This document shows, in pieces, positions 1 to 23,791 of a stretch of DNA of 25,240 nt; positions within the stretch are counted from its first letter, which is position 1; the number at the start of each line of letters is the position of its first letter. The notes beneath the pieces were generated by a model that searched no databases, had not been told where the DNA came from, and saw nothing but the letters and a program-made list of their open reading frames with translations. The stretch spans positions 1 through 25,240 of the IMG/VR virus record IMGVR_UViG_3300019487_000022; one strand, given 5' to 3'. The position numbers and the translations under genes were made by a program. Source of the DNA: a virus.

Positions 1-275
1 CTATAAAGATTACTGGTTGGACCAATCCAATCAGCGATAGTAAAAGATTGAGAAAAATTTGGAAGCCCGGTCCCGCTATAACCAGAATAACCACTTGGGC
101 CAGAGTATCCAGAATAACCTGATTTACCACTATAACCACTTGTTCCTGCGGCAGTTGCATTAACCCACTTGTTAGAACCAGAATCATATGTCAAGACTTC
201 TTGATCTTGTACATTAATAATTCTAACATCGCGAAGTTTAATGAGTTTATCGAATAGACGGACTAAATCTGGCAT
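1..275 (-). CDS. Partial (runs off window) Ser-Gly-Tyr repeat protein with tail-fibre-like N-terminal motif
   Basis: Not in the ORF track; read by hand. ATG at 275 gives MPDLVRLFDKLIKLRDVRIINVQDQEVLTYDSGSNKWVNATAAGTSGYSGKSGYSGYSGPSGYSGYSGTGLPKFSQSF..., open to base 1. The LxDV...VLTYD...KWVN segment resembles motifs of phage fibre proteins. Preceded by the promoter motif. Confidence 0.75.
   Translation of the reverse strand, partial: MPDLVRLFDKLIKLRDVRIINVQDQEVLTYDSGSNKWVNATAAGTSGYSGKSGYSGYSGPSGYSGYSGTGLPNFSQSFTIADWIGPTSNLY
72..146 (-). repeat. Coding (S-G-x)n collagen-like repeat
   Basis: GTSGYSGKSGYSGYSGPSGYSGYSG: Gly at every third residue with varied synonymous codons. Confidence 0.9.
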
Positions 276-331: not shown

Positions 332-799
332 CTACTTATTTTTAATAAGCGAAATGATAGAAGATACTACTTTTTTAGCGTCTACAAATACTTTTTCATC
401 ATAGGTTTCAGCTTCCCAACAATCGAATTGAAATCTTCTTAAATACATAGGGTCTTTTAATAAATTTATATTTGTATCATATCCGAATATAGATGGGTCA
501 GACTTTCCCCAAACTACAACCCCAGGTTTTTTATAATGAGATGCAAAATGAGGAAAGAAATTGTCAACTGAACACCATGTTGATGCTTTATCTAAAATTT
601 CTGCTAGATAATCAAACGATTGTCCTAAGATACACTCATCCGCATCAATTGGCTCCTCCCCGAAATATCCAACTTGTATAACTTTTACGTTATTCTGTTT
701 AAGTTCTTTTACTACTTCATTCCAATAGGGATAATTTTTAGGATTTTTACCTTCTCTTCGTAATGGTTTTGACCAAGGTGCAATAATAACAGACGACAT
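332..799 (-). CDS. GT9 (heptosyltransferase-like) C-terminal nucleotide-sugar-binding half
   Basis: KNYPYWNEVVKEL...VIQVG and CSVDNFFPHFASHYKKPGVVVWG match the GT9 K-wp/D-x4-H-x-A...P-x4-G motifs. It has its own AAGGA RBS. Confidence 0.75.
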   Translation of the reverse strand: MSSVIIAPWSKPLRREGKNPKNYPYWNEVVKELKQNNVKVIQVGYFGEEPIDADECILGQSFDYLAEILDKASTWCSVDNFFPHFASHYKKPGVVVWGKSDPSIFGYDTNINLLKDPMYLRRFQFDCWEAETYDEKVFVDAKKVVSSIISLIKNK

Positions 800-810
800 A
801 TTATATATCC

Positions 811-1836
811 TTACTTATACATCTCTAAAAAGGCTTGGTATAATTTACCTTTCCAATTCCTATCCCACATCCATTTGTAAACATTATATCTATCTTGACT
901 TGGATCTATTAACTGGGCTTCTGCTATACTAATAATATTTAAATCTTTTTCATCTTTAAATATTTCTGGTGTACAAAGAGCCAATGTAATCTTTTTATGA
1001 ATCTTTTTTAATTCTGGCAGAACATGTTTAAATGCAAAATGATCTCCAATTCCATTATCTAAAACAATAAGTTTTGAATCATTTAGAATGTCGTATTTTC
1101 TCAATTCTCGCCTAAATATATCTTCATCATGATCCCATAATTTTGAATCATTATAACTTCTAATACCACCTGATGGATCTCTTAAATGCCATGTTAAAGC
1201 ATTAGGCTCAACTAATAGCTTATAACCTTTCCTTTTTATCTCATATGTAAATAACGTTTCTTCTCTGTGTCCTACAGGGGATAGTACCAAATTATATTCT
1301 GCTATTCCTTTACGATATAAAAAAGTATTATGCAAATGATCAACTTCTATTACTCTATCAAACTTACTCCATTGTACATTTCCTTTTGTGCTAATATCTT
1401 CTATTTTTCCTGAACATGAAGAAAAAGGAATAACCGGATGAGAAGGAGTCCATACTAATCCTCCAACAGCTCCTATGTCTGGTTGTATTAACTTCATTAA
1501 CCTTTCCAAAACATTAGGTTCTGGTACATCATCATCATCTATTCTCCAGATCCAATCTGTGCTAGATAAAATTTGAGCCTTATGATGATTGAGAACTTGA
1601 CCTTTTCTTTCGCCATAAATTACTTGTAAATCTATATTTTTTAAATGTAAAACTGTAAATATATTTTGGTATGTTGGATCATTTCTTAAATCTTTTTGTT
1701 CTCCATCATCAAAAACAAGTATCTTTTTAGGACGACGGGTTTGATTTGCAACAGCCATTAGAGCCATAGGAAGAGTTGTATAATATCTATCCTTAGTTGA
1801 TATACTGACTGTAACAGTAGGCTCTATTTTTAACAT
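811..1836 (-). CDS. GT2 glycosyltransferase fused to a GT9 N-terminal half
   Basis: GT-A motifs VFDDG, RIDDDD, HREET. The C-terminal ~90 aa LIVLDNGIGDHFAFKHVLPELKK resembles the GT9 N-terminal GD motif. Confidence 0.8.
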   Translation of the reverse strand: MLKIEPTVTVSISTKDRYYTTLPMALMAVANQTRRPKKILVFDDGEQKDLRNDPTYQNIFTVLHLKNIDLQVIYGERKGQVLNHHKAQILSSTDWIWRIDDDDVPEPNVLERLMKLIQPDIGAVGGLVWTPSHPVIPFSSCSGKIEDISTKGNVQWSKFDRVIEVDHLHNTFLYRKGIAEYNLVLSPVGHREETLFTYEIKRKGYKLLVEPNALTWHLRDPSGGIRSYNDSKLWDHDEDIFRRELRKYDILNDSKLIVLDNGIGDHFAFKHVLPELKKIHKKITLALCTPEIFKDEKDLNIISIAEAQLIDPSQDRYNVYKWMWDRNWKGKLYQAFLEMYK

Positions 1837-1838
1837 AA

Positions 1839-2528
1839 TTATCTTATATTGTGTTTTTCAATAAATCTCTTATATATATCGTCAGTTCTCTTTGAAGCCA
1901 TATTCCCCTCATTTTTTACAATATATTTAATAAATTCTAATGAGTTCTTTTTTATTTTATACCCTGCTTTAGCGATTCTTACCCACATATCCCAATCTTC
2001 TATAGAGTTTAAATTACTATCAAAGTTCCCAACACTAAGACATTTTACCTTATGTAAAACGCTCGATATATAAATAAAATTGGATTTAATTAACATATCC
2101 ATTCCTGGATAAATATCAGGATTAGATATTCCATAAGGAATAGCTGGACTCCCATCCACAAATTCATTTATTGCATCAGAATAAACTAAATCACAATCTT
2201 CTATTGCTTTTAATTGAGAACTTAAATAATGTTCTCCCCATCTATCATCTGCATCGCAATATGCTACGTATTTAAAAAATGAATCTTGTCTTATTAAATC
2301 TAGTGCTGCATTTCTAGCTGAACTAACCCCACCATTTTCTTTATTTATAATTTTAACTCTTTTAGTAATATCTCGCCCCAATATATTTTGAGCTTTATTT
2401 TCTTCTTTAGATCCATCATCAATTAAAAACAACTTCCAGTTTAAATAACTTTGCCCCAGTATAGATATAACAGACTTTAATAGCAAGTCTTTATCATTAT
2501 AATAAGGCATTACTATTGCAACATTCAT
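1839..2528 (-). CDS. GT2 glycosyltransferase
   Basis: IVMPYYN, IDDGS, NGGVSSARN, YCDADD, EDWDMW. Start placed at ATG 2528, 1 nt after the upstream TAG. Confidence 0.92.
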   Translation of the reverse strand: MNVAIVMPYYNDKDLLLKSVISILGQSYLNWKLFLIDDGSKEENKAQNILGRDITKRVKIINKENGGVSSARNAALDLIRQDSFFKYVAYCDADDRWGEHYLSSQLKAIEDCDLVYSDAINEFVDGSPAIPYGISNPDIYPGMDMLIKSNFIYISSVLHKVKCLSVGNFDSNLNSIEDWDMWVRIAKAGYKIKKNSLEFIKYIVKNEGNMASKRTDDIYKRFIEKHNIR

Positions 2529-2529: not shown

Positions 2530-5500
2530 CTATTTCTTTTCAATCAAAGCTAAAAATAACCCGTTATGCCATTTTCCATATGCTGTTTTGCCATCTTCCC
2601 ATTCAGAATTCAAAAGAGGTACAGGCAAATAAACTTCATGTATTATTGATATCTGATTATCTTTAATCAGATCCTTTAAAGAATCCTGCGTACCTTTTTT
2701 AACACTTGGCCACTCATAATCATCTACAATAAAGAGAAATCTCTTTGCCATAGCAGGTAGGGCAAATTTTAAAGCCTTATATTGGTCTTCGTATGTATGA
2801 TTTCCATCAAATAAATACATATTAATTGGTGGAAGATTTTGTATATCTATCTTAAAAAAATCATTTTCAATCAGCGTACAATCGTTATCTCCACCAAATG
2901 TATTAACATTATGTATTAATTCATCTTTAGCATGAATAAACTGTTTATTCTGTCTCTGAGTAAAATCACTAAATAAACTAAAATCGTCTACAATATAGCA
3001 TATACCCATTTTATTATTAGATAAAACGGAACAACAAGTACTTCCTCTCCAACAACCAACCTCCAAGTAATTTAATCCACTACAAGAACCTAAATTATTT
3101 AATAAATGCCTATTAGTTGTGCTAGACATGCCTTCTATTGTTAGAACATCAGGATTTATATTAGATATTCCTTGTTCTGCACGATATACACAATCATCAA
3201 TAAAAGCAGGAGTTAACGATGTTTGATTAGTAAACAGGTTGTCTTCTTTAGTTGATTTTTGAAATAACAGACCTTTAGTTATTAAATTAGATTGATTCTC
3301 AGATACAAAATTTGGATATGTAGAGTCTATATCAACAAATTCAAATTGATATCCTGATCTGTTAAATATATCTATCCCCTGTTCTATATTTTTATTAATA
3401 TTATCTTTATTATCTAAATCAGGGAATTTAACTTCTTGATGTGCCCAGGATTTTAATTTTTCTAAAATTACATCTCCCCCGCCCATCCAACTAAAATGCC
3501 ATCCGCCATTAGAGATTTTTTGACTCTCAGTACACTCTCTGTATCTTAAATCTGTTGTATTCAATCCAAATCTCTTCATATTTCCATACGTTGTTATGCG
3601 ACTAAATACGCCTGGCTTTATTTCATCCTTTCCTGCTTTTAAATTAAGATAAAAATTATACAAAGTCTGTTCAAAATACATCCAATCTTGTTGTGGGTTA
3701 TACTCTTTTATTTTCTCACCTCTAGGTATTTCATCTATATCAGATAGAATAATAATATCTTCATCTGAACAATTTTGCAGAGCATTCATTATATAATTTC
3801 TTTGATAATGCTCTATTACCCAAGGATCAGGATCGTAAACCAATGGTGCTATTAAATGAATTATCTTAGACTCAAAATTTTTAAATCTATCTTTATTATT
3901 CTTAAAATATAATGGCTTATGTATTCCCGTATGAGTTGTTGCCATCTCGCAAATAACAAATTTATCAACATAAGGATCTAATTCATTTAATCTTATTTCT
4001 AATAGGTCTAACTCATTAAAAAATGTAAAACAATCATATACTTTTCTTTGTGTCTTCTGCTGGGGTACAATTTGAGGTTGTGATTTATGATAAATATATC
4101 CTTTTTTATCATAATACTCCATATTGCAGAGCAAATATAAAGGATAACTATCATCTATATCAACGATTGTATATTGAATGCCTCTGTGATATAAATCTGT
4201 CGCATTTTCTAATGAATGAATAATATTATCATCATTATTAAACTGAGGTATATTTAGTTCTGTATGAACATAGGAAGTTATCTTTTGTTTTATAAACTCT
4301 TTGTCGCCGATAAAACTAAAATGCCAACCCGCGTTTTGTATTGTGTGTTTAAAATCATAGTCTCTAGTAGTACGAAAAGAATCTATATCACAATTTTTAG
4401 CTTCTGAATAAGGGAAAATTCTGGCTTTATACCATCCGTCCAAAACTTCATAATTCAATTTATAACAAAATAATCGTAAATGAAGACATGTCAATCCCAT
4501 AGAAGGTCTGTATTTATCTATAACAGAAGCCTTGGGAATCTCATCAGCGTCTGTCATAATAATAATGTCATCATCATGGCAATCTACTAAACCACGTTTA
4601 ATAGCATTTCTTTGAAATGTTTCATTAGAATACGAATCTCCAGGAGGGAATTCATCAATTACTACATGTCTAACTTTCGGTAAGAATTGTTCAAATCTAG
4701 ACAAATTTTCTGCAAAATATAATGGTTTAGGTAATCCAGAATGCGTGAATCTAGACTCCACAATAACAAAATAATCTACAGTGTTATAAAGTTCATTAAA
4801 CCTTAACTCTAAAATATCCAATTCATTAAAAAACATAAAACAGTCATATATTTTAGATCTTCTAACTCCCTTTTCAACATACCAGGAGCTGGAATAAGAC
4901 TTAACTTCTTCCCCGAATATTTCATCTACTGCTTTCTTTACATCAGCACAATAAGGATAATCATGACCTCCAATAATACCATTGGATTTTAATTTAGGTA
5001 GCCATGCTGATATATCATTTTTCACCGATTCATAATCATGACTAGCATCTATAAATATTAAATCTGCACAATTGTTTGCCAACATACTAGCTGCAGAAAC
5101 TGATTCAGTTCTAAATATAGTTAGATATTCGTTTAATCCAAACCTATCAATGTTGTTAATAAATTCTTGATATATATCTGATTTTTTAGCTTCCTCAGCA
5201 TGAGTTGTTCCACCTTTAAACGTATCAACCGCATAAACTTTTAATTTCTTTGCTTTAATTATATCTGCCAAAGAGCATAAACTTCTGCCTTTCCAATTCC
5301 CAATTTCAATTATTATTCCCCCATCAGGAACTTTAGAAACATACTCTCGATACAAATCAATATCAAGGTCAGAAAACCATCCATCCGGCAATTCTTTATC
5401 ATTAATACGTTCTAATACTGTCATACCATTATTATTAGTTAAATGCTCTTTTATACGCCAATTTTTATTACTATCTAAAAATTCATCAATCGCTCGTTTT

Positions 5501-8466
5501 AATCCTGTTCCAGGACCACCTGGCCATCCGCCATAATAATCCCCTTGCATTCCTTCTTCTGCATGAAATACTGTATCATGTAAGATAATATATTTTTTAA
5601 CCTTACCTGTATGTAATTTTAACTCACTTTTCAATTGGTCATAACAGTGAATTGTATCAATAAATAACAAATCTGTAGGCTCTATATCAGCCTCTAACAC
5701 ATCTTTTTGAATAAAACGAAAATCTATATTTTCTTCTCTCGCTAAATCTATTAACTTATCTACTTCATCTTCTTTATGCCAATCATAAGAAATTAAACGC
5801 TTAGGTTTTGCTGATAAAAACGCCAAAGTAGATTGTCCATGCCTTACACCAAATTCAGTAACATGATCGCAAATTTCCGCATATCTTTTTAATATTGGTA
5901 GGTGTTCATTTATATCACTGGAAGTATCTTGACACGCTTGTTTATATCTATAGTCAAGACTATCTTTATTTACAAGATTTACATTCTCTAAAATTGTTAA
6001 GCCGTTGTTGTTTTCATAAATTTCTTTTATTTTCCACTGGGTATTGTTTATTAAAAACTCTTCAATTGCATCTTTTAGCCCCTTATTAACAGATTCATCA
6101 AACGATAAAGATAATCCATCTCCAGATACGCTTTTATGATCGAAAGTCTTAGTATCATGCATTATAATATACTTACTTACTTTTGAAGCATGAAGATTTA
6201 ATTCTGTTAAAAGATGAGAATAAGAATGATAAGTATCAATAAATAACAAGTCGGTATTTTCTATATTTATTTTAGATGTATCCCCTTGAATAAAAGATAA
6301 TTTAATTTGTTCTCTTTTTGCAGCATCTATCGCAAATTCTATTTTTGGACAAGATCTCAAATCATATGAAACCATTGTTTTTGGCATGCCAGCCAAAAGA
6401 CCCCATGTTGAGACAACCTCACGTACTCCAAATTCTGTTATATGTTCACATTGCTGAGCATATAATTTTAATATAGGAAGATGTTCATTTATATCACTTG
6501 GAGTATCTTTATATTCTGTATACTTTCTTTCTATTGTGCTTTTAAAATTATGCTTTGCTTTAAGATAATCTAGAGAAGATTTCGTTCTTTCGTTTTTTAG
6601 TAACGGAAGATTTTGTTTTTCTCTTTCTGTGGTATCTCCATAAATACGACTAAAAGTAGCTCCACCACAATGACGAATAGGAAATATATCAAACTTTTCA
6701 TCTATCTTTGTAAATTCTGTATTATATTCTACATTATGCGGAACCTGTACTATATTATATCCAGCATTCCTAGCTCTAATACTAAAATCTACATCTTCAT
6801 AATATCCTTCTCCAAAGTTTTCATCTAATATGCCAATATTGTCAAATACTTCTCTTTTTATCATGACACAAAAGAAAAGAATATACTCTCCCTGGGCTTC
6901 ATCTAACCAAGATTTTTTTACTCCTGTTATTCCTACTTTACTGTCGCCCTTAAAAGGTTCTTCTAATAACGAAAGCCAAGTATCTTTACTTACCCATGCA
7001 TCGTTATTTAAAAGTATTATATACTCACCTGAAGATTCTTTTATACCAGCATTCGTAGGTTTTATATATCCTGCAGCATCCGGCATAACAATAACTTTAA
7101 AAGGATGCCCTAATTTATTTACATATTCTTCAGTTCCGTCTGTGCAGCCATTAGCAACAACAATTACTTCTATATTTGATAAATCTGTATATTTTTTTAT
7201 ACTTTCTAAACACGGTACTAAACAATCATGCAAATGATTATAAGTAGGGATAACTATAGAATATTTTACCTTTTGAGATATATTATGATTAACAGGCTTA
7301 TAAGCCTCAATTCTCATATTATAACCCCAATGCCATTTAAAAACAGGATCCAATTTACTGACTTTAGTAAAATTGTTACTTATTAAATGATCTTTTAATA
7401 TCTCTTCATACCAACCAAACAAATGAGGGTTACTCACATTTGGGTCATAAACTGTTGTCCCGTAAATACAATTAAGAAGTGTGTATCTTTCGTTTTTATT
7501 AGATTTTTCAAAATTACGACACAATTCTAGAATATCAGGTAATTCTAAAATGAGTTTACCACCAGGAACTAAAACCCTATTCCATTCTTTTAAAATATCA
7601 TTTGCTTGAAAACAGGAAAAATGTTCAAATAGATGAAATGCAGCAATTTCATCAACACTATTATCTGGATAATCTAAATGTCTAACATCCATTTGTTTTT
7701 GAGCAAGTGGGTTATACAAATCTATATTTACATATCCAGGTAATAAAATACTTCCGCAACCTAAATTTAACTTAAGTTTTTGACTATATCTTTCATGTAG
7801 TATTTTTTCATTTCTATCTACGATACTGTCCCATCCTTTTACGCCATGAACAGTAATACTAGATTTATGCCATATTGGAAATTGAATTTCATGGTCAGTT
7901 ATTTCTCTTTCGTTTTTAAAAGTAACATCATTAGGGACTTGTAATATACGATATCCTGCTAATCTAACTTTATGGCAATAATCTATATCTTCACCATAAC
8001 CTGGATTAAAAGATTCATCCAACAATCCGATTTCCTGTATAATTTTTCTACTTATCATTACACAGAAAAATAATAAGAAATCACATTTAGTTCCAACATG
8101 AAAATCTTTAGCAGCGCCCGTCATCCCAACTGAAGCATCTTTTGCAAAAGGATCTGACAATATTTTTAACCACAAATTTTTCTCTGAATCTAAAATAACA
8201 TTGTCATTATTTAAGAGTATTATATAATCACCAGAAGATGCTTTTATCCCCTCATTGGTTGCTTTTGTATATCCTGCTGGCTCATCAATCCATATAAGTT
8301 TTAATCCTAAAGATTCTACATATGATTTGGTTTCATCCGTACAACCATTAGCAACAACTATAATCTCTACATCTTTCAAATCAGTATTTTTAATAATACT
8401 ATCAAGACATGGCTTTAAACAGTCATAAAAGTGATTATAAGTAGGGATAATTATAGAATAGCGCAT
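2530..8466 (-). CDS. ~1978-aa multidomain glycosyltransferase/methyltransferase (GT2-MT-GT2-MT-MT-MT-GT17-GT17-MT)
   Basis: ATG 8466 with an AGGAAG RBS. Approximate domains: GT2 8466-7790; MT (LNLGCG) 7775-7300; GT2 7270-6560; Methyltransf_24-like 6500-5985 and 5920-5405 (SDINEHLP, EFGVR, LFIDT); MT 5390-4875 (EIGNWKGRS, FIDASH); GT17-like 4855-4100 and 4045-3260 (YDCFxFFNELD, DxDEIP, GWHFS); MT 3200-2530 (EVGCWRGS, FDGNH). Confidence 0.9.
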   Translation of the reverse strand: MRYSIIIPTYNHFYDCLKPCLDSIIKNTDLKDVEIIVVANGCTDETKSYVESLGLKLIWIDEPAGYTKATNEGIKASSGDYIILLNNDNVILDSEKNLWLKILSDPFAKDASVGMTGAAKDFHVGTKCDFLLFFCVMISRKIIQEIGLLDESFNPGYGEDIDYCHKVRLAGYRILQVPNDVTFKNEREITDHEIQFPIWHKSSITVHGVKGWDSIVDRNEKILHERYSQKLKLNLGCGSILLPGYVNIDLYNPLAQKQMDVRHLDYPDNSVDEIAAFHLFEHFSCFQANDILKEWNRVLVPGGKLILELPDILELCRNFEKSNKNERYTLLNCIYGTTVYDPNVSNPHLFGWYEEILKDHLISNNFTKVSKLDPVFKWHWGYNMRIEAYKPVNHNISQKVKYSIVIPTYNHLHDCLVPCLESIKKYTDLSNIEVIVVANGCTDGTEEYVNKLGHPFKVIVMPDAAGYIKPTNAGIKESSGEYIILLNNDAWVSKDTWLSLLEEPFKGDSKVGITGVKKSWLDEAQGEYILFFCVMIKREVFDNIGILDENFGEGYYEDVDFSIRARNAGYNIVQVPHNVEYNTEFTKIDEKFDIFPIRHCGGATFSRIYGDTTEREKQNLPLLKNERTKSSLDYLKAKHNFKSTIERKYTEYKDTPSDINEHLPILKLYAQQCEHITEFGVREVVSTWGLLAGMPKTMVSYDLRSCPKIEFAIDAAKREQIKLSFIQGDTSKINIENTDLLFIDTYHSYSHLLTELNLHASKVSKYIIMHDTKTFDHKSVSGDGLSLSFDESVNKGLKDAIEEFLINNTQWKIKEIYENNNGLTILENVNLVNKDSLDYRYKQACQDTSSDINEHLPILKRYAEICDHVTEFGVRHGQSTLAFLSAKPKRLISYDWHKEDEVDKLIDLAREENIDFRFIQKDVLEADIEPTDLLFIDTIHCYDQLKSELKLHTGKVKKYIILHDTVFHAEEGMQGDYYGGWPGGPGTGLKRAIDEFLDSNKNWRIKEHLTNNNGMTVLERINDKELPDGWFSDLDIDLYREYVSKVPDGGIIIEIGNWKGRSLCSLADIIKAKKLKVYAVDTFKGGTTHAEEAKKSDIYQEFINNIDRFGLNEYLTIFRTESVSAASMLANNCADLIFIDASHDYESVKNDISAWLPKLKSNGIIGGHDYPYCADVKKAVDEIFGEEVKSYSSSWYVEKGVRRSKIYDCFMFFNELDILELRFNELYNTVDYFVIVESRFTHSGLPKPLYFAENLSRFEQFLPKVRHVVIDEFPPGDSYSNETFQRNAIKRGLVDCHDDDIIIMTDADEIPKASVIDKYRPSMGLTCLHLRLFCYKLNYEVLDGWYKARIFPYSEAKNCDIDSFRTTRDYDFKHTIQNAGWHFSFIGDKEFIKQKITSYVHTELNIPQFNNDDNIIHSLENATDLYHRGIQYTIVDIDDSYPLYLLCNMEYYDKKGYIYHKSQPQIVPQQKTQRKVYDCFTFFNELDLLEIRLNELDPYVDKFVICEMATTHTGIHKPLYFKNNKDRFKNFESKIIHLIAPLVYDPDPWVIEHYQRNYIMNALQNCSDEDIIILSDIDEIPRGEKIKEYNPQQDWMYFEQTLYNFYLNLKAGKDEIKPGVFSRITTYGNMKRFGLNTTDLRYRECTESQKISNGGWHFSWMGGGDVILEKLKSWAHQEVKFPDLDNKDNINKNIEQGIDIFNRSGYQFEFVDIDSTYPNFVSENQSNLITKGLLFQKSTKEDNLFTNQTSLTPAFIDDCVYRAEQGISNINPDVLTIEGMSSTTNRHLLNNLGSCSGLNYLEVGCWRGSTCCSVLSNNKMGICYIVDDFSLFSDFTQRQNKQFIHAKDELIHNVNTFGGDNDCTLIENDFFKIDIQNLPPINMYLFDGNHTYEDQYKALKFALPAMAKRFLFIVDDYEWPSVKKGTQDSLKDLIKDNQISIIHEVYLPVPLLNSEWEDGKTAYGKWHNGLFLALIEKK

Positions 8467-9053: not shown

Positions 9054-9875
9054 CTATTTTGGTTTGTAAGATAAAGAGGTAAGTTCTGAATATATCTGAT
9101 TAGGAGTGGGTTTCTTACCATTTTTCTCTTTATTTTTCTGAATTAACAGAGATGCTAATCCTGCAATCATTGCCGTGGTTAAACTGCTTCCATTGGCTTT
9201 TGTGTATTTATTATGCAAATAAGTGGTAAAAACTGAACCCATTGGAATGGCAATTTGTAATCCCGTAGAACCAGAAACAAATTTGTTAGACTTAGTTTCT
9301 TTTAATCTTGCTACGGATAAAACTTCAGGATAAGACGACGGATATTCAATTACAGATGTTTTTTCCCCAGCAGCAGCAAATACGCATATGTTTTGCTCAT
9401 ATGCTTTCTTAATAGTATCATGCAATACACTATAGTTAGTAGGAGACCCTAAAGAAATAACAATAATATCTACTTGTTTAACAACTGCCCACAATACCCC
9501 AGCCACTAAAGAATTAAATGAAGAATCACCGTTACTATCTATTACCTTGATGAAATATAGATCTGATTCGGTAGATATACCCGTTATTGATTTAGGATTA
9601 TTTGCAGACAAAACTCCAGCTATCATGGTAGAATGACCATTATGATCTATTTTATCTCTTTCAGTTTCGGACATATCTACAGATTCAACAACATTTTTTA
9701 TGTCTTTATGATCAGGAGTGCCGGAATCAATAATTGCTATCTTTACTCCTTTACCTGTTAAATGTTGTCCTAATCCATAATCTACTCCCCTAAACACACA
9801 AGGGTTTGGAATAGAGTCATAAATCTGTTTTGGCTGTCTTTTTGATTGACTAATATGATAACTTATTTTTGACAT
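9054..9875 (-). CDS. Subtilisin-like S8 serine peptidase, atypical
   Basis: GKGVKIAIIDSG (Asp), DHNGHSTMIAG (His), NGSSLTTAMIAG (Ser). The oxyanion motif reads AAAGE instead of AAGN. Start placed at ATG 9875, just after the upstream TAG. Confidence 0.85.
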   Translation of the reverse strand: MSKISYHISQSKRQPKQIYDSIPNPCVFRGVDYGLGQHLTGKGVKIAIIDSGTPDHKDIKNVVESVDMSETERDKIDHNGHSTMIAGVLSANNPKSITGISTESDLYFIKVIDSNGDSSFNSLVAGVLWAVVKQVDIIVISLGSPTNYSVLHDTIKKAYEQNICVFAAAGEKTSVIEYPSSYPEVLSVARLKETKSNKFVSGSTGLQIAIPMGSVFTTYLHNKYTKANGSSLTTAMIAGLASLLIQKNKEKNGKKPTPNQIYSELTSLSYKPK

Positions 9876-10599: not shown

Positions 10600-11273
10600 A
10601 ACTCAGCTCGCCCTGTTCTTAAAGCTTCTGCTAATTCTTCGTCTGACATCTCATTTCCACCGCCTTGTTCACGTTCAATTGCTTTTATATCTTCACCAGT
10701 AAACTGTAAATTAACTAAACCATCATCTCCATCAAACATCTTTTCTGCCAATGCAATTGAGCTACCAACGGCTCCATCTTTAATAGTTATATCATCAAGT
10801 TGGGCATCCTTAGCAGATTGTCTTTTACTCATATATTCAGCCTTAGCTTTAGATTCTTTTTTAACTGATTTCTGCATTGTTCTATAATTAATGATACGTA
10901 AAACTTTATCTTTTAATAGTTTTCTAGCTGCAACAGAGTTTTTAAGATTTTCATGTAATTCTTCATCTATTAGCTTAACATCAGCTGGTCCCTCAAATGT
11001 AAGACCTATATCCTGTATAATTACAGAACCTTTCTTAGTACATTGTAAAAAGTACGGCTGATCTGAATCATCTTCTTGATCTATTTCTTTTATAAGCCCC
11101 TGTATAGTTTTAATAAAATCTGTTAAACTAACATCTATGATTTCCGTAATATACATTACTCTACGACTTTTGATATTAGCAACAAGTTCTTCTAATTCAT
11201 CAAATTCATATATTTTTACGCCTTTATCTGAAAAATCTTTTATAACTCTATTTTCTACGTCTACAAATAGCAT
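10596..11273 (-). CDS. Hypothetical protein
   Basis: ATG 11273 overlaps the GT4 stop (TAATG), and its own stop overlaps the next ATG, suggesting translational coupling. Confidence 0.75.
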   Translation of the reverse strand: MLFVDVENRVIKDFSDKGVKIYEFDELEELVANIKSRRVMYITEIIDVSLTDFIKTIQGLIKEIDQEDDSDQPYFLQCTKKGSVIIQDIGLTFEGPADVKLIDEELHENLKNSVAARKLLKDKVLRIINYRTMQKSVKKESKAKAEYMSKRQSAKDAQLDDITIKDGAVGSSIALAEKMFDGDDGLVNLQFTGEDIKAIEREQGGGNEMSDEELAEALRTGRAEL

Positions 11274-12676
11274 TATACACTCCAAATCTGTTTTAATCTC
11301 TCTAATATTGAATCGACTACGGTATCTATAGAATATTCTTTTTTAACCAAGTTTTGTAATTTTTTGTTTTTTTCTTTAGCCTTATTAGGATTTTCATAAA
11401 CATATCTCATTAATTGAGAAGCACCTTCTATTGTTTTATAAGAAGTTAATACAGGAAATACTTGTTCATCCCAATAATGCACATGCATAAGTCCAGACTG
11501 AACAGGAGCAAAAGAATCTGGATCTAAAAGATAAGAATTATCGTGATTCAAAAACATAGCTTGTCCACTGCAATTTGTGGAAATAACAGGTAAACCACAT
11601 AAAGAAGATTCACATAATGGCATTCCAAAACCCTCCCCGCGTGTAAATAATACAAACGCATTACACGATCTGTATAAGCTAGGCATTTTATTCTCAGGAA
11701 TAACTTTACTACATCTGACAATATGAGGTACATTTTTACCACCATATTGTTGACAATATGAATCTATTGTTGTGCGAATAATATCATTTTTCTCTGATGT
11801 ATTGTGATATCTAGAAACTAATAAAAGAGATACGTTATCTTTATCTGTAAATGCTTTTAAATAAGATTTTAATAATACATCAAAACCTTTTCTATAACTC
11901 CATCCAAAAACGCTTACAAAAACAAAGTCTTTTAGTTCTGGACGAAATTCATATTTATCCCCTTTAGAAGTATAAGAATCTACATCAACCGTGCATGGAA
12001 AGACATATATTGGTCGTTTTAATCCTGATTTTATAAGAATATCTTTTGAAAAATCTGAAGTTACCCATATTTCCTTATAATTGTTAGCTACTTCTAAAAA
12101 TTGCTTAGGAATTGAATAGGATTCAACTGTTGTATACAGTATAGAATTTCTACCACTACTGCAATTTCCAAATGAAGGTATCATACTATCGATTCTGATT
12201 GTGTTTTTATTAGGTTTTCCTCTTAAAGAAGACATTGTATACATTTCTTCATCTGTGAGATGATTTTTATTACCCACAGATTCTATTATGACTTTTACAC
12301 CTCTTTTTTGAAGAGCAAGGGCAAGATTACGATTTACTTTAGCATAACCACCAGCTTCAAAAAAGTGACCTTTAATCAAGACCTCTAGTTCTTTTGATTC
12401 TTGATTTTCTAGACTTATATTCTCTTCTTTATTGGGAGATAATATTTTTTGTTTTAATACAGCCATTTTTTCTTTCAATCTGTAAAGGTTGTTTTCAATA
12501 CGAGTATCTTCAATACTCTTAATTTCAAAAGTTTCAGCTAAAACCATAGCCTGAAAACCTTTAGATCTTAAAATTTCATCTTCTTTTATTTCTTGCTCAA
12601 TATCGTTTAAATACGGGATATGTTTATTAATATCTGCAAGATATATAGTATTTTTACTTTTATTTATAAATTTCAT
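11273..12676 (-). CDS. GT4 (GT-B) glycosyltransferase with N-terminal extension
   Basis: GGYAKVNRNLA, RKGFDVLLKSY and the EX7E motif GEGFGMPLCES, then GLPVIST. AGGA RBS. Confidence 0.92.
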   Translation of the reverse strand: MKFINKSKNTIYLADINKHIPYLNDIEQEIKEDEILRSKGFQAMVLAETFEIKSIEDTRIENNLYRLKEKMAVLKQKILSPNKEENISLENQESKELEVLIKGHFFEAGGYAKVNRNLALALQKRGVKVIIESVGNKNHLTDEEMYTMSSLRGKPNKNTIRIDSMIPSFGNCSSGRNSILYTTVESYSIPKQFLEVANNYKEIWVTSDFSKDILIKSGLKRPIYVFPCTVDVDSYTSKGDKYEFRPELKDFVFVSVFGWSYRKGFDVLLKSYLKAFTDKDNVSLLLVSRYHNTSEKNDIIRTTIDSYCQQYGGKNVPHIVRCSKVIPENKMPSLYRSCNAFVLFTRGEGFGMPLCESSLCGLPVISTNCSGQAMFLNHDNSYLLDPDSFAPVQSGLMHVHYWDEQVFPVLTSYKTIEGASQLMRYVYENPNKAKEKNKKLQNLVKKEYSIDTVVDSILERLKQIWSV

Positions 12677-12691
12677 TATATCCTGCTATTT

Positions 12692-12718
12692 TATCGTATA
12701 AATAAAAGAACACACTTA
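12692..12718 (-). promoter_or_regulatory. Putative alternative-sigma promoter
   Basis: TAAGTG-N15-ACGATA, 15 nt upstream of the GT4 ATG; overlaps the terminator arm. Confidence 0.5.
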
Positions 12719-12740
12719 CAAAAATTGCAAGTGTGTTCTT
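12700..12740 (-). terminator. Intrinsic terminator
   Basis: Minus strand AAGAACACACTTGCAA-TTT-TTGTAAGTGTGTTCTT (16-bp stem, one G-U pair) followed by TTATTT. Confidence 0.75.
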
Positions 12741-16026: not shown

Positions 16027-16054
16027 TTTCGATATTTATATATTAGTTTCCTTG
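16027..16054 (-). promoter_or_regulatory. Putative alternative-sigma promoter
   Basis: CAAGGA-N16-TCGAAA ending 9 nt before ATG 16017. Confidence 0.5.
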
Positions 16055-16621
16055 AGCCAATCTTTTAGCTAACAAAATATCCTTAATGACGTTATCATTA
16101 TTTTCTTTAGTATTTTGACGGAGTATAAAGGCAGGATGAAGAGTAGGAATGAATGCTTTATTTTTATAGGATTTCTGGCTTCCCCGTTCTCTAATAATAC
16201 TAATCTTAAAATCATTTGTTAATGCTTTGAGAGCGGTAGAGCCTAATGTAATAAGAACTTTGGGTTTAATAATCCAAATTTGATAATCTAAATATGATAG
16301 ACAGGACTTAATTTCTATTTCTTCTGGTATTCGATTATTTGGTGGACGGCATTTTATAATATTTGCAATATAAACGCTTTTTCTTTCTATTTTACAAGAT
16401 TCTAACCATTGATTTAATAATTGCCCAGCTTTACCAACAAATGGTTTGCCTTGTTCGTCTTCATCTTTTCCAGGGGCTTCCCTGATAAACATTATATCAC
16501 AATCTATATTCCCGGCTCCAAATACTGTTCTAGTCCTACCTTCGCATAACTTGCAGTCTTTGCATTTGGATACCTTATCTTCGCAGATGCTTAGGTAAAA
16601 TTCTTTTTCTTGAGTTAGCAT
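16043..16621 (-). CDS. udg: Family-4 uracil-DNA glycosylase (4Fe-4S)
   Basis: CxxC, (R)EAPG, GKPFVGKAG, NIIKCRPPNNR, HPAFILR. Confidence 0.92.
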   Translation of the reverse strand: MLTQEKEFYLSICEDKVSKCKDCKLCEGRTRTVFGAGNIDCDIMFIREAPGKDEDEQGKPFVGKAGQLLNQWLESCKIERKSVYIANIIKCRPPNNRIPEEIEIKSCLSYLDYQIWIIKPKVLITLGSTALKALTNDFKISIIRERGSQKSYKNKAFIPTLHPAFILRQNTKENNDNVIKDILLAKRLAQGN

Positions 16622-18023: not shown

Positions 18024-19673
18024 ATGAATCAAATTATACATGTAATATTAATTTTAGATGATAGTCCATCTATGTTAATGCATAGAGAAAACACAAAATG
18101 TGGAGTTAACCAAACATTAGACACGCTACGCGCAGTTACTAAAGAAACAAAACAAGATATTTTTGTCACAATTGCAATTTTTGCAAGTGAAAATTATATC
18201 GCCCCAGGATTTTATTGCACCCCTCTTAATGAGACAATAAAATTTACTGATAACAATATGCCTTCATCGGGTTCTGGAACATTGATGAATAAAGCTTTAT
18301 TAAATATTCTTTCATCTGTACCAAGTTACGAAAACAACTTGTGCTGTATATTTACAGACGGAGAAACACACGACGGAGAATTATTTCCCCAAGCATCTGA
18401 TATGATCGAGAATATAAAAGATCAAGGATATACTTTTGCATATATTGGAGCTAATCAGAATGTTGAAGAGATTGTAGAAAAATTAAATATCTCAAAATCT
18501 AATTCTATGAAATATATTAGCGATGCAAATGGTACTAGAGGGGCATTTTATCAATTATCACTTGGTATTAGAAAATATTGTGAATTTAAAGCCAAGGGAA
18601 AAAATATTAATAAGATGTTTGATGTATTAGATATTAAGAAAACAAAAATGAAAGTTCGCGGTTTAGAATGTTCTATTAATACCCCAGAAGCAAGAATATC
18701 CGATCAAAATGTTAACTATCTACCGCCTTATGCTCCGACACCAGCATATGTAGTAGATGAATATCCTGCATGTCCTGATAATTGGATGCATGGCTCAGCT
18801 AAAGCATCCTCTTATTTCGTACCTGTTAAGACAGGAAAAGGGATGTGGCTAGATTTTAATGAAGCATCTAAAAAGAGCAGACATCATTTAGCAGCGGTTA
18901 TTTCTGTTCAAGGAGTTAATCCCGTAACAGGTCAAAGAACTTCCTCAATGAGATTGGAAAAATACGAAAATAAATGTCCAATACATGACATAGATTTCCA
19001 ACAAGATAGATTCTGTTCAGAATGTGAATATAAATGGCCTGCACAAAATTATTTAGCATCCAATATGACACCTCAAGGTCAATTTTGGATAGATGGTTTT
19101 AGAAACGAAGAAGGTTTGGTAAGACAATATATCTTTACAGAAGAAGAAGAAAAACGAGGCATAGCACAAGCTATTTCAGGTGATGATAGAGTTTTTGCTA
19201 TTGGAATTGCATTTTTCCGCAGCAAAAAGAAAAAACCCATTCCAAAACCAATATACTTTGGTGGATTTAGTGGTTATTCAGGTGTCTCAGGATATTCTGC
19301 TATAAGTGGCTATAGTGGCTATAGTGGATGTTCAAGAGTGTCTGGTTATTCTGGAATAAGTGGAAGTTGGTCGACACATGGAATAATGAATGCCACCGTA
19401 GATAGTATTGGTATTGGTGCATCTTATCCAGATCAACAAATTATATTTGATGAACCGATAGATGTTAAATCTTACGAAATTGCTGCCGGGAGTAAAATAA
19501 AACAGACAGTATATGAAGATACAAATAAAATATCTTTTTGGGAAGATGAACCTTATGCAATGTTGTATATCAATTATGCAGATGAAAAATCAGTAGAGCA
19601 AATCTTAGCAAAAGGTAAACGAAAATATCGACCTGAAGGATTTTTAACTAATATTCCGGTGGGTAATTCTTAA
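18024..19673 (+). CDS. vWA-domain protein fused to an uncharacterised domain with zinc-finger and SGY-repeat insertions
   Basis: MIDAS DDSPS...T...FTDG and YIGANQ. C-terminal domain MWLDF...GVNPVTG...QNYL...QFWIDGF...VRQY...AAGSKIKQTVYED. CPIH...CSEC insertion. GGAG RBS. Confidence 0.85.
   Translation: MNQIIHVILILDDSPSMLMHRENTKCGVNQTLDTLRAVTKETKQDIFVTIAIFASENYIAPGFYCTPLNETIKFTDNNMPSSGSGTLMNKALLNILSSVPSYENNLCCIFTDGETHDGELFPQASDMIENIKDQGYTFAYIGANQNVEEIVEKLNISKSNSMKYISDANGTRGAFYQLSLGIRKYCEFKAKGKNINKMFDVLDIKKTKMKVRGLECSINTPEARISDQNVNYLPPYAPTPAYVVDEYPACPDNWMHGSAKASSYFVPVKTGKGMWLDFNEASKKSRHHLAAVISVQGVNPVTGQRTSSMRLEKYENKCPIHDIDFQQDRFCSECEYKWPAQNYLASNMTPQGQFWIDGFRNEEGLVRQYIFTEEEEKRGIAQAISGDDRVFAIGIAFFRSKKKKPIPKPIYFGGFSGYSGVSGYSAISGYSGYSGCSRVSGYSGISGSWSTHGIMNATVDSIGIGASYPDQQIIFDEPIDVKSYEIAAGSKIKQTVYEDTNKISFWEDEPYAMLYINYADEKSVEQILAKGKRKYRPEGFLTNIPVGNS
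19260..19367 (+). repeat. Coding (S-G-x)n repeat
   Basis: GGFSGYSGVSGYSAISGYSGYSGCSRVSGYSGISGS. Confidence 0.9.
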
Positions 19674-21764: not shown

Positions 21765-22115
21765 CTATTTTACCTTCTTTGCCTTTTTCTTCCAGTTAAC
21801 AAATACTCTGCCTTTGCCAGAAAGTATCAAATCTTTAAAGTCAACAAAATCAATTTCGCTCATACTGCCAAAGAATTTAGGATTATCATAATGAGCTAGA
21901 TATGCTGATTTTGCTTTCTTACTGCTATCAAATCCTAACATTACTTTATCTTCATCATATTTACCTGTTTTAGGATCATTCTGATGAACAATATAAACCT
22001 TTTCGGGTTCTTGATTTGTACCTAAATATACGTCTAAGCCTTCTCCGTCCTCACCCTTAGCTTTATAAATAAAGCCATAATCATATTTCATCTTAACACG
22101 CCATTCTTTACCGTT
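21765..22115 (-). pseudogene. 5'-truncated phage inorganic pyrophosphatase-domain gene (may still be expressed from ATG 22091)
   Basis: YDYGFI, DGEGLDVY, HQNDP, DEDKVMLGF. The frame continues upstream of the ATG as NGKEWRVK (family-like GxxWxxxM) and then hits the element end and a stop. Confidence 0.75.
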
Positions 22116-22260
22116 AAACCAATCTTACAAAAACTTGATAGATTGACATTTCGAGCCTTAACCGCCGTTCCTTCACCGAACGGCAAGCAACTCACGCTAC
22201 TTTCAAATGTTTTCGCAAGGGGTTAATGACTACAGGCGTTGCGGCAACGCTCCTATCCCT
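22095..22260 (-). ncRNA. Putative omega/reRNA scaffold plus guide
   Basis: Hairpins GCGTTGC/GCAACGC (22236-22250, inside the tnpB 3' end), GCCGTTC/GAACGGC and CAATCT/AGATTG. The guide would start near 22112 (GGTAAAGAATGGCGTG). Boundaries approximate. Confidence 0.6.
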
Positions 22261-23410: not shown

Positions 23411-23763
23411 TTTCCTTCACAATTTTAGAGCCGTATAACCAAATGTTCATCCCCTCAAATTCGTTGTAAGTATCCTCTGGATAGGAAGGGATGTCAGATG
23501 GTTTATTACCAGATTGGCAATACGACCTCCACTCTTTTCTGCTTTTCAAGCCCAAAGTATGCACGAATACTTTGGCATCTTTGTAGTCCCGATACTGTCT
23601 AAAACGCCTCTGCTTTACATGACTAAAATACTCTGGCTTCTTCCTCATAATCTGAGACAGGCCATTGTATCCGTTCTCCTTTGCCAACCTCTCAGCGTCA
23701 GCCAAATGGGTTTCTATGAGCTTCCTGTATCTCTTCTTCTGTTCTTGGTTCTTCTTTTTTCAT
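23385..23763 (-). pseudogene. Frameshifted fragment with integrase-repeat/helicase-associated-like repeat
   Basis: YKDAKVFVHTLGLKSRKEWRSYCQSGNKPSDIPSYPEDTY...WL. The frame is open back to KKKNQEQKKRYRKLIETHL but is one base out of frame with ATG 23763 at an A6 run. Confidence 0.55.
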
Positions 23764-23791
23764 TTTGTTTTAAAAGAAAATAATGTGTTCT

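What the first reader, a model, noticed from the sequence alone, without database searches (positions are those of the whole stretch)
2530..8466. Nine-domain glycan assembly-line megaenzyme
One uninterrupted ORF has the order GT2-MT-GT2-MT-MT-MT-GT17-GT17-MT with apparently intact motifs (NND/ED, DxDEIP, Gly-rich SAM loops). The alternating glycosylation and methylation modules suggest a colinear synthase for an O-methylated glycan. Chlorovirus A064R is a much smaller precedent. I do not know of a characterised enzyme with this architecture.
Basis: partly seen in the sequence, partly recalled or inferred. Interest (0 to 1): 0.85.

Follow-up and report, generated by a model that had tools for sequence, protein, structure and literature searches.

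The report
Nine-domain phage sugar-and-methyl transferase
A very large uncultured phage encodes one 1978-residue soluble protein that strings together four sugar-adding and five methyl-adding enzyme domains; it belongs to an unstudied, heavily shuffled phage family that sits next to collagen-like fibre genes and probably coats those fibres with methylated sugars.

Summary
Window 2530-8466 (minus strand) is one uninterrupted 1978-aa ORF. Family-conserved catalytic residues are kept in the eight domains I could test.

It is not a one-off. At least 204 metagenomic proteins of 1087-3462 aa are built from the same module types in different orders. The closest lie on phage contigs of 130-494 kb.

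The two GT2 genes just downstream (1839-2528, 811-1836) are fused to the C-terminus of the megaenzyme in many relatives. The working unit is therefore about eleven transferase domains plus a GT9-like gene (332-799). The pair 811-1836 plus 332-799 is the conserved anchor; the module train before it varies from 2 to about 13 domains.

Collagen-like (Gly-Tyr/Phe-Ser)n tail-fibre genes flank the locus in 16 of 24 related loci and start 56 nt downstream here. The most likely role is cytoplasmic building of O-methylated glycans on virion fibres.

Strict colinearity and a true assembly line (carrier domain) are not supported. I found no paper on this family. This scan had already met a 2990-aa relative on other DNA.

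The parts
2530..8466 (-). Megaenzyme ORF, 1978 aa, nine transferase domains, no predicted membrane segment
7822..8466 (-). Domain 1, GT2 (GT-A glycosyltransferase), aa 1-215
   Evidence: PF00535 73 bits. Conserved N40, D88, D150-E151, D160, D162 and H200 are kept.
7273..7821 (-). Domain 2, class I SAM methyltransferase (Methyltransf_11 type), aa 216-398
   Evidence: PF08241 38 bits, matching only the C-terminal half of the profile. The family alignment shows L233-N-x-G236-x-G238 and D249 kept in the N-terminal half.
6547..7272 (-). Domain 3, GT2, aa 399-640; 49.5% identical to domain 1
   Evidence: PF00535 82 bits
5977..6546 (-). Domain 4, CmcI / rhamnosyl O-methyltransferase-type MT, aa 641-830
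   Evidence: PF04989 28 bits against a cut-off of 23.2. All family-invariant residues are kept.
5407..5976 (-). Domain 5, second CmcI-type MT, aa 831-1020; 48% identical to domain 4
   Evidence: PF04989 26.7 bits; PF13578 25.9 bits, just under its 26.3 cut-off
4882..5406 (-). Domain 6, Methyltransf_24 MT, aa 1021-1195
   Evidence: PF13578 81 bits; phrog_2675
4147..4881 (-). Domain 7, GT17-like glycosyltransferase, aa 1196-1440
   Evidence: PF04724 117 bits; DADEI motif at 1306-1310
3247..4146 (-). Domain 8, GT17-like glycosyltransferase, aa 1441-1740
   Evidence: PF04724 129 bits. AlphaFold2 model pLDDT 90.1, pTM 0.85, GT-A fold.
2533..3246 (-). Domain 9, divergent Methyltransf_24-type MT, aa 1741-1978
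   Evidence: PF13578 34 bits, full profile length; phrog_1458 C-terminal half. Among the homologues this type was mapped only in P0006.
1839..2528 (-). Stand-alone GT2 gene, 229 aa. Its ATG lies 1 nt after the megaenzyme's stop. It is the C-terminal domain of the megaenzyme in many relatives.
811..1836 (-). GT2 gene, 341 aa, with a C-terminal beta/alpha half-domain. It is the conserved anchor gene and is fused to the module train in some relatives.
332..799 (-). 155-aa protein that always follows the anchor GT2. Its L003 homologue matches the C-terminal half of GT9 (heptosyltransferase family).
3..275 (-). Start of a collagen-like (Gly-Tyr-Ser)n gene, 56 nt downstream of 332-799. It runs off the contig end. 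Candidate acceptor.
18024..19673 (+). VWA-domain protein with a short interrupted Gly-Tyr-Ser run. Second candidate acceptor.
11273..12676 (-). GT4 glycosyltransferase, first gene after a terminator-like and a promoter-like site. Same strand and possibly the same transcript as the megaenzyme.

Best explanation
The ORF is a real, soluble, nine-domain transferase of a huge phage. It has four inverting-type GT-A glycosyltransferase domains (two GT2, two GT17-like) and five class I SAM methyltransferase domains.

It is the first gene of a tightly coupled block: megaenzyme, GT2 (229 aa), GT2 (341 aa), GT9-like (155 aa). This block lies directly upstream of a collagen-like (Gly-Tyr/Phe-Ser)n fibre gene.

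Most likely the block works in the infected cell's cytoplasm on the phage's own collagen-like fibres.
- The conserved pair 811-1836 plus 332-799 supplies the constant, probably priming, step on the exposed Ser (or Tyr) side chains.
- The variable domains of the megaenzyme each add one sugar from a nucleotide sugar or one O-methyl group from SAM. The product would be a short, heavily O-methylated glycan, possibly containing 6-deoxyhexose.
- Fusion keeps the enzymes equimolar and close together.
- Gain, loss and swapping of whole domains between related phages changes the glycan.

Shown here: the ORF, the domain identities, the intact conserved residues, the fusions in relatives, and the synteny with collagen-like genes.

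Inferred: the sugar and methyl chemistry, the acceptor, the division between core and elaboration, and any order of action.
For: 1. All nine domain calls are above Pfam cut-offs. Family-invariant residues are kept in eight domains. The GT17 domain folds confidently as GT-A.

2. There is no hydrophobic segment typical of a membrane helix. The maximum Kyte-Doolittle 19-mer score is 1.62, inside the GT2 core.

3. The two downstream GT2 genes are C-terminal domains of the megaenzyme in at least 17 and 14 homologues. P0024 carries both, in the window's order.

4. The genes are separated by 1, 2 and 11 nt.

5. The anchor pair follows the module train:
- in 6 of 6 huge-phage loci;
- in 6 of 7 more distant phage loci, where the train has only 2-6 domains;
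- and the anchor GT2 lies directly upstream of every W332 homologue in 11 of 11 metagenome loci.

6. Proteins that flank the locus match Collagen PF01391 at 28-298 bits and PHROG tail-fibre or collagen-like minor-tail families. They occur in 16 of 24 related loci.

7. Whole-contig scans for the repeat:
- all 19 matches in a 142-kb genome rated 100% complete lie next to the megaenzyme;
- all 53 matches in a 130-kb genome rated 90% complete do too;
- all 56 matches in a 171-kb contig and 67 of 68 in a 258-kb contig flank it;
- in a 494-kb genome, one of two clusters does.

8. The closest relative (L003) carries RmlB-like, RmlD-like and RmlA-like genes between the megaenzyme and the anchor GT2.

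9. Precedents:
- A064R, GT-GT-MT, builds and 2-O-methylates the rhamnose end of a capsid glycan in the cytoplasm (PMC9614988).
- WsaE, MT-GT-GT (PMC2943079).
- The collagen-like BclA carries rhamnose and 2-O-methylated anthrose (PMC6222408).
- SgtA glycosylates the collagen-like BclA3 (PMC7157674).
Against: - There is no biochemical or proteomic evidence.
- Donor sugars, linkages and methylation positions cannot be read from sequence.
- The collagen association is synteny among related phages, so the loci are not independent observations.
- 8 of 24 loci show no collagen-like ORF within the fetched flanks; most of these loci are short.
- One complete genome has a second collagen cluster about 230 kb from the megaenzyme.
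- The window's own 124-kb contig, estimated 26% complete, has no sugar-nucleotide genes.
- Bacterial homologues of the single domains lie in ordinary polysaccharide gene clusters. A lipid-linked acceptor is therefore not excluded.
Confidence: 0.55

Rival explanations
1. The enzyme remodels or builds a host-envelope polysaccharide (O-antigen, capsule or S-layer glycan) on a lipid carrier at the inner face of the membrane during infection. The purpose could be to block superinfection or to alter the cell surface.
For: - The characterised bacterial multi-domain relatives by function (WsaE, WbdA) act on undecaprenyl-linked glycans (PMC2943079).
- Single-domain GT17 and GT2 homologues lie in bacterial polysaccharide-type clusters in Chlamydiota, Verrucomicrobiota and Gastranaerophilales MAGs.
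- A recent preprint counts huge-phage glycosyltransferases as envelope-associated (10.64898/2026.10.24.761521).
Against: - Pfam found no initiating phosphoglycosyltransferase, flippase, ABC transporter, polymerase or ligase in the window.
- The megaenzyme has no membrane segment.
- The locus is conserved beside fibre genes rather than lysis or early genes.
Confidence: 0.2
2. It is a strictly colinear glycan assembly line. The domains act in N-to-C order, so the domain string spells the product: sugar-Me, sugar-Me3, sugar, sugar-Me.
For: - A064R acts in domain order D1, D2, D3 (PMC9614988).
- Non-random cassettes recur across the family: GT2 then MT11 (79 observed against 50 in shuffles), and MT24 then GT17 (18 against 6.7).
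Against: - There is no carrier or docking domain.
- The two recurrent cassettes place the methyltransferase on opposite sides of the glycosyltransferase.
- WsaE's capping methyltransferase is N-terminal (PMC2943079).
- The adjacency counts come from related proteins and are not independent.
Confidence: 0.12
3. The glycosyltransferase domains decorate the phage's DNA (hydroxymethylated bases) with sugars, as in T4-like and other hypermodifying phages.
For: - Phage glycosyltransferases are known to hypermodify DNA (Pyle et al. 2024, cited in PMC12619734).
- A uracil-DNA-glycosylase-family gene lies at 16043-16621.
Against: - Five methyltransferase domains of sugar or small-molecule O-MT types, rml-type genes in relatives, and conserved placement among fibre genes all fit a protein or glycan target better.
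- No base-hydroxymethylase was seen in the window. I did not search the whole contig for one.
Confidence: 0.05
4. The single ORF is an artefact (assembly chimera), or a polyprotein that is cleaved into separate enzymes, for example by the S8 protease encoded at 9054-9875.
For: - A subtilase gene lies two genes upstream on the same strand.
- The protein is known from a single cluster member.
Against: - Independent contigs from other samples carry continuous 1931-2990-aa relatives.
- Internal repeats are too divergent to mislead an assembler.
- The subtilase is not conserved in the related loci.
Confidence: 0.04

Closest known systems
Chlorovirus PBCV-1 A064R (638 aa; two rhamnosyltransferase domains plus a 2-O-methyltransferase domain) with A061L
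   Same: - Virus-encoded and soluble.
- Several transferase domains of about 200 aa on one chain.
- Mixes glycosyl and methyl transfer.
- Builds the outer part of a virion-protein glycan in the cytoplasm (PMC9614988).
   Different: - Three domains against nine (eleven counting the split-off GT2 genes).
- Eukaryotic virus against tailed phage.
- The PMC9614988 review describes A064R-D1 as having a GT34-like GT-A fold and D2 as representing a new GT family; here the domains are GT2 and GT17-like.
- Sequence homology was not tested, because no A064R sequence was available to the tools.
Geobacillus stearothermophilus WsaE (methyltransferase plus two rhamnosyltransferase domains) and E. coli WbdA
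   Same: Large cytoplasmic multi-domain enzymes that build, and in WsaE's case methyl-cap, a glycan that ends up on a surface protein (PMC2943079).
   Different: - They are bacterial.
- They have two or three domains.
- They act on a lipid-linked glycan that is exported by an ABC transporter and transferred by an oligosaccharyltransferase. None of those partners is in this locus.
Glycosylation of collagen-like proteins: Bacillus anthracis BclA, C. difficile SgtA with BclA3, Mimivirus L230
   Same: - Gly-X-Y repeat proteins with hydroxyl residues in the repeat are glycosylated by enzymes encoded near them.
- The BclA glycan contains rhamnose and an O-methylated sugar (PMC6222408, PMC7157674, PMC9614988).
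   Different: - Those repeats are Thr- or Lys-based; here they are Gly-Tyr/Phe-Ser.
- The known enzymes have one or two domains.
- No glycan has been shown on any phage collagen-like fibre.
Uncharacterised phage relatives: P0004/L010 (2990 aa, about 13 domains), P0130/L003 (2062 aa), P0006 (1857 aa)
   Same: - Same module types.
- Same anchor pair downstream.
- Same collagen-like neighbours.
- 39-64% identity in the best segments.
   Different: - Every protein has its own module order: 47 architectures among 120 proteins.
- Relatives add FkbM-type methyltransferases and extra GT2 domains.
- Many relatives keep the terminal GT2 fused, whereas here it is a separate gene.

Membership tests
GT2 (Pfam PF00535, GT-A fold) | Profile match above the curated cut-off | tested here: met
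   73 and 82 bits against a cut-off of 23.3, for aa 1-215 and 395-640
GT2 (Pfam PF00535, GT-A fold) | Metal- and nucleotide-binding acidic residues (DxD-type Asp and the downstream ED...D) | tested here: met
   D88/D489, D150-E151/D548-E549 and D160,D162/D558,D560 coincide with columns conserved at 91-100% in 349 domain instances
GT17 (Pfam PF04724, MGAT3 family) | Profile match above the curated cut-off | tested here: met
   117 and 129 bits against a cut-off of 26; also found by the genome search
GT17 (Pfam PF04724, MGAT3 family) | Conserved D-x-D-E-I motif and GT-A fold | tested here: met
   D1306/D1308/E1309/I1310 and D1576/D1578/E1579/I1580 are invariant in 90 instances. The model has pLDDT 90.1 and its best structural matches are GT-A enzymes at TM 0.3-0.42. 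No solved structure was found by sequence.
GT17 (Pfam PF04724, MGAT3 family) | Beta-1,4-GlcNAc transfer to the core mannose of N-glycans (the characterised activity) | not testable with these tools
   Donor and acceptor cannot be read from sequence. An N-glycan acceptor is not expected in a phage.
Class I SAM-dependent methyltransferases (PF08241, PF04989, PF13578) | Profile matches above cut-off and a glycine-rich SAM loop with the following acidic residue | tested here: met
   All five segments are above cut-off. G236-x-G238 and D249; E678-x-G680 and D702, with the same in copy 2; G1056, G1060, S1062 and D1081. Domain 9 was judged from the Pfam match and by eye only.
Class I SAM-dependent methyltransferases (PF08241, PF04989, PF13578) | Sugar O-methylation as the reaction | not testable with these tools
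   Inferred from fusion to glycosyltransferases and from A064R-D3, WsaE and rhamnosyl O-methyltransferases in PF04989.
Carrier-based modular assembly lines (PKS/NRPS type) | Carrier or tethering domain between catalytic modules | tested here: not met
   Pfam finds only transferase domains. The nine domains fill 1978 aa with no unassigned stretch.
Carrier-based modular assembly lines (PKS/NRPS type) | Colinearity of module order and product | tested here: inconclusive
   Cassette orientation differs between the GT2-MT11 and MT24-GT17 pairs. A real test needs product structures.
Virus-encoded multi-domain glycan-building enzymes (A064R, A111/114R type) | Several transferase domains on one soluble viral polypeptide | tested here: met
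Virus-encoded multi-domain glycan-building enzymes (A064R, A111/114R type) | Sequence homology to A064R domains | not tested
   No A064R sequence was available through the tools.
Virus-encoded multi-domain glycan-building enzymes (A064R, A111/114R type) | Glycan demonstrated on a virion protein | not testable with these tools
   Needs virion glycoproteomics.

The most novel reading that the evidence does not exclude
Huge phages carry a hypervariable 'glycan writer'. A conserved two-gene anchor primes the Ser or Tyr residues of collagen-like virion fibres. A train of 2 to about 13 fused glycosyl- and methyl-transferase domains, reshuffled module by module between phages, then writes a lineage-specific, heavily O-methylated glycan. 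In effect this would be a naturally recombining toolkit in which domain content predicts glycan structure.
Probability: 0.3. Interest if true: 0.8.

Novelty: new variant of a known kind. Interest (0 to 1): 0.6.

Why it matters
Characterised enzymes that combine glycosyl and methyl transfer on one chain stop at three domains (A064R, WsaE). This phage family reaches nine to about thirteen and varies by whole-domain gain, loss and fusion.

If the collagen-fibre target is right, three things follow:
- It would extend virion glycosylation, so far described for chloroviruses, mimiviruses and some mycobacteriophages, to huge phages.
- It would be the first case of a glycosylated phage collagen-like fibre.
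- It would offer a natural series of related enzymes for learning which domain makes which linkage or methyl group, which is useful for glycoengineering.

It also shows that a striking single gene is really part of a larger unit whose conserved core lies in the small neighbouring genes.

Tried and rejected
I could not fetch the contexts of the protein-database homologues or the 184,772-bp contig that holds the same protein. The search for related loci was used instead.
- **Metagenome scan** did not return the window's own longer contig. The full collagen-like gene that starts at window 275 is still unseen.
- **NCLDV origin** rejected. There is no NCLDV capsid match (although the control genomes also gave none). 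Earlier notes and tail-fibre PHROG matches point to a tailed phage.
- **A natural 'split' version in L011** rejected. Its roughly twelve ORFs break inside domains, so they are frameshifts, either assembly errors or decay.
- **Solved-structure search by sequence** gave only weak GT2 matches such as TarS (E 1.6e-6) and nothing for GT17, even with a profile.
- **Sugar-nucleotide genes** (PF01370, PF00483) are absent from the 124-kb contig.
- **Split GT9 idea**: that the C-terminal extension of the 811-1836 protein is the missing N-half of a split GT9 enzyme. Pfam finds nothing there in four homologues. The model shows only a three-strand beta/alpha half-domain. This is left open.
- **Promoter and terminator scan** gave no more sites than shuffled sequence.
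- **Literature searches** for phage multi-domain GT/MT enzymes, GT17 in phages and glycosylated phage collagen-like fibres found no description of this family.
- Two papers could not be opened.
Full report
**1. The observation**

The window has 30% G+C and most of its genes are on the minus strand. The longest ORF runs from 8598 (TTG) or 8466 (ATG) down to 2530 without a stop.

ATG 8466 is the likely start, for three reasons:
- It gives a protein that begins directly with the GT2 core (MRYSIIIPTYNH), as the relatives do.
- It is preceded by AGGAAG about 10 nt upstream.
- It does not overlap the upstream gene.

The product is 1978 aa. Pfam on the whole protein finds GT17 (229 bits, two stretches), GT2 (143 bits, two), Methyltransf_24 (138 bits, three), RMNT_CmcI (51 bits, two) and Methyltransf_11 (37 bits).

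I cut the protein into nine segments. Every segment scores above the curated cut-off of at least one family. In segment 5, Methyltransf_24 reaches only 25.9 bits, just under its 26.3 cut-off; the call there rests on RMNT_CmcI.

**2. Are the domains intact?**

I mapped the query's nine segments onto 120 homologues with phmmer, extracted 27-349 instances of each domain type and aligned them. Every column conserved at 100% in these alignments carries the same residue in the query's copies:
- GT2: the Asn-Gly and Asp of the nucleotide-binding part, the NND Asp (D88/D489) and the ED-x-D region.
- GT17: D-x-D-E-I (1306-1310 and 1576-1580).
- Methyltransferases: the glycine-rich loops and following acidic residues.

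The ninth domain had only two instances and could not be tested this way. It matches the full length of PF13578, and by eye it keeps the E-x-G-x-x-x-G loop.

An AlphaFold2 model of the second GT17 domain, built on 36 sequences, has pLDDT 90.1 and pTM 0.85. Foldseek places it among GT-A glycosyltransferases: chondroitin synthase, TarS, SpsA, GlfT2, PmHS2 and Mimivirus R699. TM-scores are modest at 0.3-0.42. Neither the protein nor a profile of the domain finds a solved GT17-like structure by sequence.

The protein has no hydrophobic stretch typical of a membrane helix.

**3. Artefact?**

The internal paralogues are old. Domains 1 and 3 are 49.5% identical, 4 and 5 are 48%, and 7 and 8 are 38%. 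The longest DNA repeats inside the gene are 155 and 86 nt at 74-78% identity. Repeat-driven misassembly is therefore unlikely.

Continuous relatives of 1931-2990 aa lie on independent viral contigs from other samples. The apparent split version in L011 is a string of frameshifts inside domains, not a set of single-domain genes.

**4. Where it lives**

The window is the first 25 kb of a 123,806-bp IMG/VR viral record that CheckV rates 26% complete. Earlier notes of this scan describe it as a very large cave phage with CRISPR-Cas and tRNA genes. I did not re-test those notes.

The nearest relatives of the megaenzyme are on viral contigs of 258, 142, 130, 494, 371, 171 and 187 kb.

In species-representative bacterial genomes the same search found only single-domain GT17-like and GT2 genes, in ordinary-looking clusters of Chlamydiota, Verrucomicrobiota, Gastranaerophilales and others. 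No multi-domain form turned up. That scan finds close relatives only.

**5. A shuffled family, not a singleton**

The protein database holds at least 204 proteins of 1087-3462 aa with E of 0.001 or better. Mapped with the query's own domains, the best 120 give 47 different module strings. None equals the query's, and the query has the most mappable modules, nine.

The unmapped stretches in relatives are FkbM-type methyltransferases, further GT2 domains and MT24 domains. Proteins such as P0004 (2990 aa) therefore carry about 13 domains.

Some neighbour pairs recur far more often than in label shuffles:
- GT2 then MT11: 79 observed against 50 expected; the reverse order was seen 3 times.
- MT24 then GT17: 18 against 6.7.
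- GT2 then CmcI, and CmcI then GT2.

These proteins are kin, so the counts are not independent events.

Compared with the closest relative (L003, 58% identity over 834 aa), the query differs as follows:
- it lacks an N-terminal GT2;
- it has a duplicated CmcI domain plus MT24;
- it lacks the FkbM domain between the two GT17 domains;
- it has its own ninth domain.

The family evolves by whole-domain gain, loss and replacement.

**6. The unit is larger than the ORF**

The megaenzyme's TAG is followed after one base by the ATG of a 229-aa GT2 gene. Two bases after that gene comes a 341-aa GT2 gene. Eleven bases further on comes a 155-aa gene.

- The 229-aa protein is the C-terminal domain of the megaenzyme in P0007, P0004, P0003, P0102, P0076, P0008-P0012 and others.
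- The 341-aa protein is the C-terminal domain in P0048, P0114, P0050, P0044 and others.
- P0024 carries both, in the window's order.

These fusions tie the three genes into one functional unit of about eleven transferase domains.

The 341-aa GT2 and the 155-aa protein form the most conserved part:
- They follow the module train in all six huge-phage loci.
- They do so in six of seven more distant phage loci, where the train has only 2-6 domains.
- The 341-aa type lies directly upstream of every homologue of the 155-aa protein in eleven metagenome loci.

The L003 homologue of the 155-aa protein matches the C-terminal half of GT9 at 28 bits against a cut-off of 22. The 341-aa protein is modelled (pLDDT 89.6) as a GT-A domain plus a small C-terminal beta/alpha half-domain.

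**7. The neighbours point to an acceptor**

Fifty-six bases downstream of the block, an ORF begins that runs off the contig end. It reads GTSGYSGKSGYSGYSGPSGYSGYSGTG, a Gly-X-Y collagen-type repeat with Tyr and Ser.

In all six related huge-phage loci the megaenzyme is flanked by proteins of 335-1480 aa full of (Gly-Tyr/Phe-Ser)n runs. These match Pfam Collagen at 28-298 bits and PHROG tail-fibre and collagen-like minor-tail families.

I scanned whole contigs for the repeat at DNA level:

| Contig | CheckV completeness | Repeat matches |
|---|---|---|
| 142 kb | 100% | all 19 in the gene 1.2 kb upstream of the megaenzyme |
| 130 kb | 90% | all 53 in the adjacent gene |
| 171 kb | 34% | all 56 within about 13 kb either side |
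| 258 kb | 51% | 67 of 68 flank it |
| 494 kb | 98% | 24 adjacent, 26 about 230 kb away |

Counting every related locus examined, 16 of 24 contain a collagen-like ORF within the fetched flanks. Most of those without one are short fragments.

The closest relative also carries RmlB-like, RmlD-like and RmlA-like genes between the megaenzyme and the anchor GT2, and a sulfotransferase upstream. This suggests a 6-deoxyhexose in that phage's glycan. The window's contig has no such genes, but three quarters of the genome are missing.

**8. Most likely mechanism**

These are soluble enzymes made late in infection, next to fibre genes. They most plausibly act in the cytoplasm on the fibre proteins themselves, as A064R does on the chlorovirus capsid protein (PMC9614988).

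In a collagen triple helix the X and Y side chains point outwards, which is established structural knowledge. The Ser and Tyr hydroxyls of a Gly-Tyr-Ser repeat would therefore be accessible.

O-glycosylation of Ser, Thr and Tyr is documented for S-layer proteins (PMC2943079). Glycosylation of collagen-like repeats is documented for BclA, with rhamnose and a 2-O-methylated sugar (PMC6222408), for BclA3 by SgtA (PMC7157674) and for mimivirus collagen by L230 (PMC9614988).

I infer that the conserved anchor pair performs the constant step and the variable domains extend and methylate. A conserved core with a variable periphery is the usual pattern of glycan evolution.

GT2 and GT17 are inverting families in CAZy, which is established knowledge. 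The GT4 gene at 11273-12676 would add a retaining step.

None of the chemistry is shown here.

**9. What is not supported**

There is no carrier domain and no evidence of tethering, so 'assembly line' is only a metaphor. Colinearity cannot be tested in silico. The opposite orientation of the two recurrent cassettes, and the N-terminal capping methyltransferase of WsaE, argue against treating it as a rule.

**10. Rivals**

- Host-envelope polysaccharide synthesis on a lipid carrier remains possible (about 0.2). The locus lacks every export and initiation component.
- DNA glycosylation is unlikely (about 0.05).
- An artefact or cleaved polyprotein is unlikely (about 0.04). The nearby S8 protease gene is not conserved in relatives.

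**11. Novelty and score**

Multi-domain GT/MT enzymes are known with up to three domains, so this is a new variant of a known kind rather than a new category. It belongs to an uncharacterised family for which I found no publication.

This scan had already noted a 2990-aa relative on another genome and read it the same way. I reached the collagen link from my own synteny analysis before seeing that note.

Interest is 0.6: notable to glycobiologists and phage biologists, and directly testable, but without experimental support and not unique to this window.

Noticed in passing
window 22192-23382 (and 22001-24000): A TnpB/IS605-OrfB-like gene (Cas12f1-like TNB and OrfB_IS605 matches) lies in an island of 44-48% G+C against a 30% background. 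It is probably a recently inserted mobile element.
   Followed up: no
window 811-1836 and 332-799: The anchor GT2 has a C-terminal three-strand beta/alpha half-domain (model pLDDT 89.6). The next gene's homologue matches only the C-terminal half of GT9. Together they might form a two-chain GT-B enzyme, as Alg13/Alg14 do. Pfam finds nothing in the extension.
   Followed up: partly
window 3-275 and G000 122659-123519: Both ends of the 123.8-kb contig fall in or next to Gly-Tyr-Ser repeat genes. The assembly probably broke at these repeats, so the contig ends are not genome ends.
   Followed up: no
L011 9977-18857: The megaenzyme homologue on this 187-kb contig is broken by about ten frameshifts inside domains. 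This is either an error-prone assembly or a decaying gene.
   Followed up: partly
L003 18092-18949: A LAGLIDADG homing-endonuclease-like gene sits between the RmlD-like and RmlA-like genes of the relative's glycosylation block.
   Followed up: no
L003 7725-8336: A sulfotransferase-family gene lies two genes upstream of the relative's megaenzyme. That phage's glycan, or its fibre tyrosines, might also be sulfated.
   Followed up: no
window 9054-9875: A subtilisin-family (S8) protease gene lies on the same strand two genes upstream of the megaenzyme. It is not found in the related loci.
   Followed up: partly
window 6830-7237 (+): A 135-aa antisense ORF inside the megaenzyme has 'homologues' antisense to the relatives' GT2 domains. 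This is most simply a by-product of conservation of the sense strand, not a gene.
   Followed up: partly
window 12675-12740 (-): A 16-bp-stem terminator-like hairpin is followed at once by TTTATA-16-TATAAT in front of the GT4 gene. This may be the start of a transcript running through the megaenzyme to the collagen-like gene. No other convincing terminator lies on that strand down to position 1.
   Followed up: no
window 18024-19673: A VWA-domain protein carries a short interrupted Gly-Tyr-Ser run at about aa 415-450. It may be a further fibre-associated or adhesin protein and a possible second acceptor.
   Followed up: no
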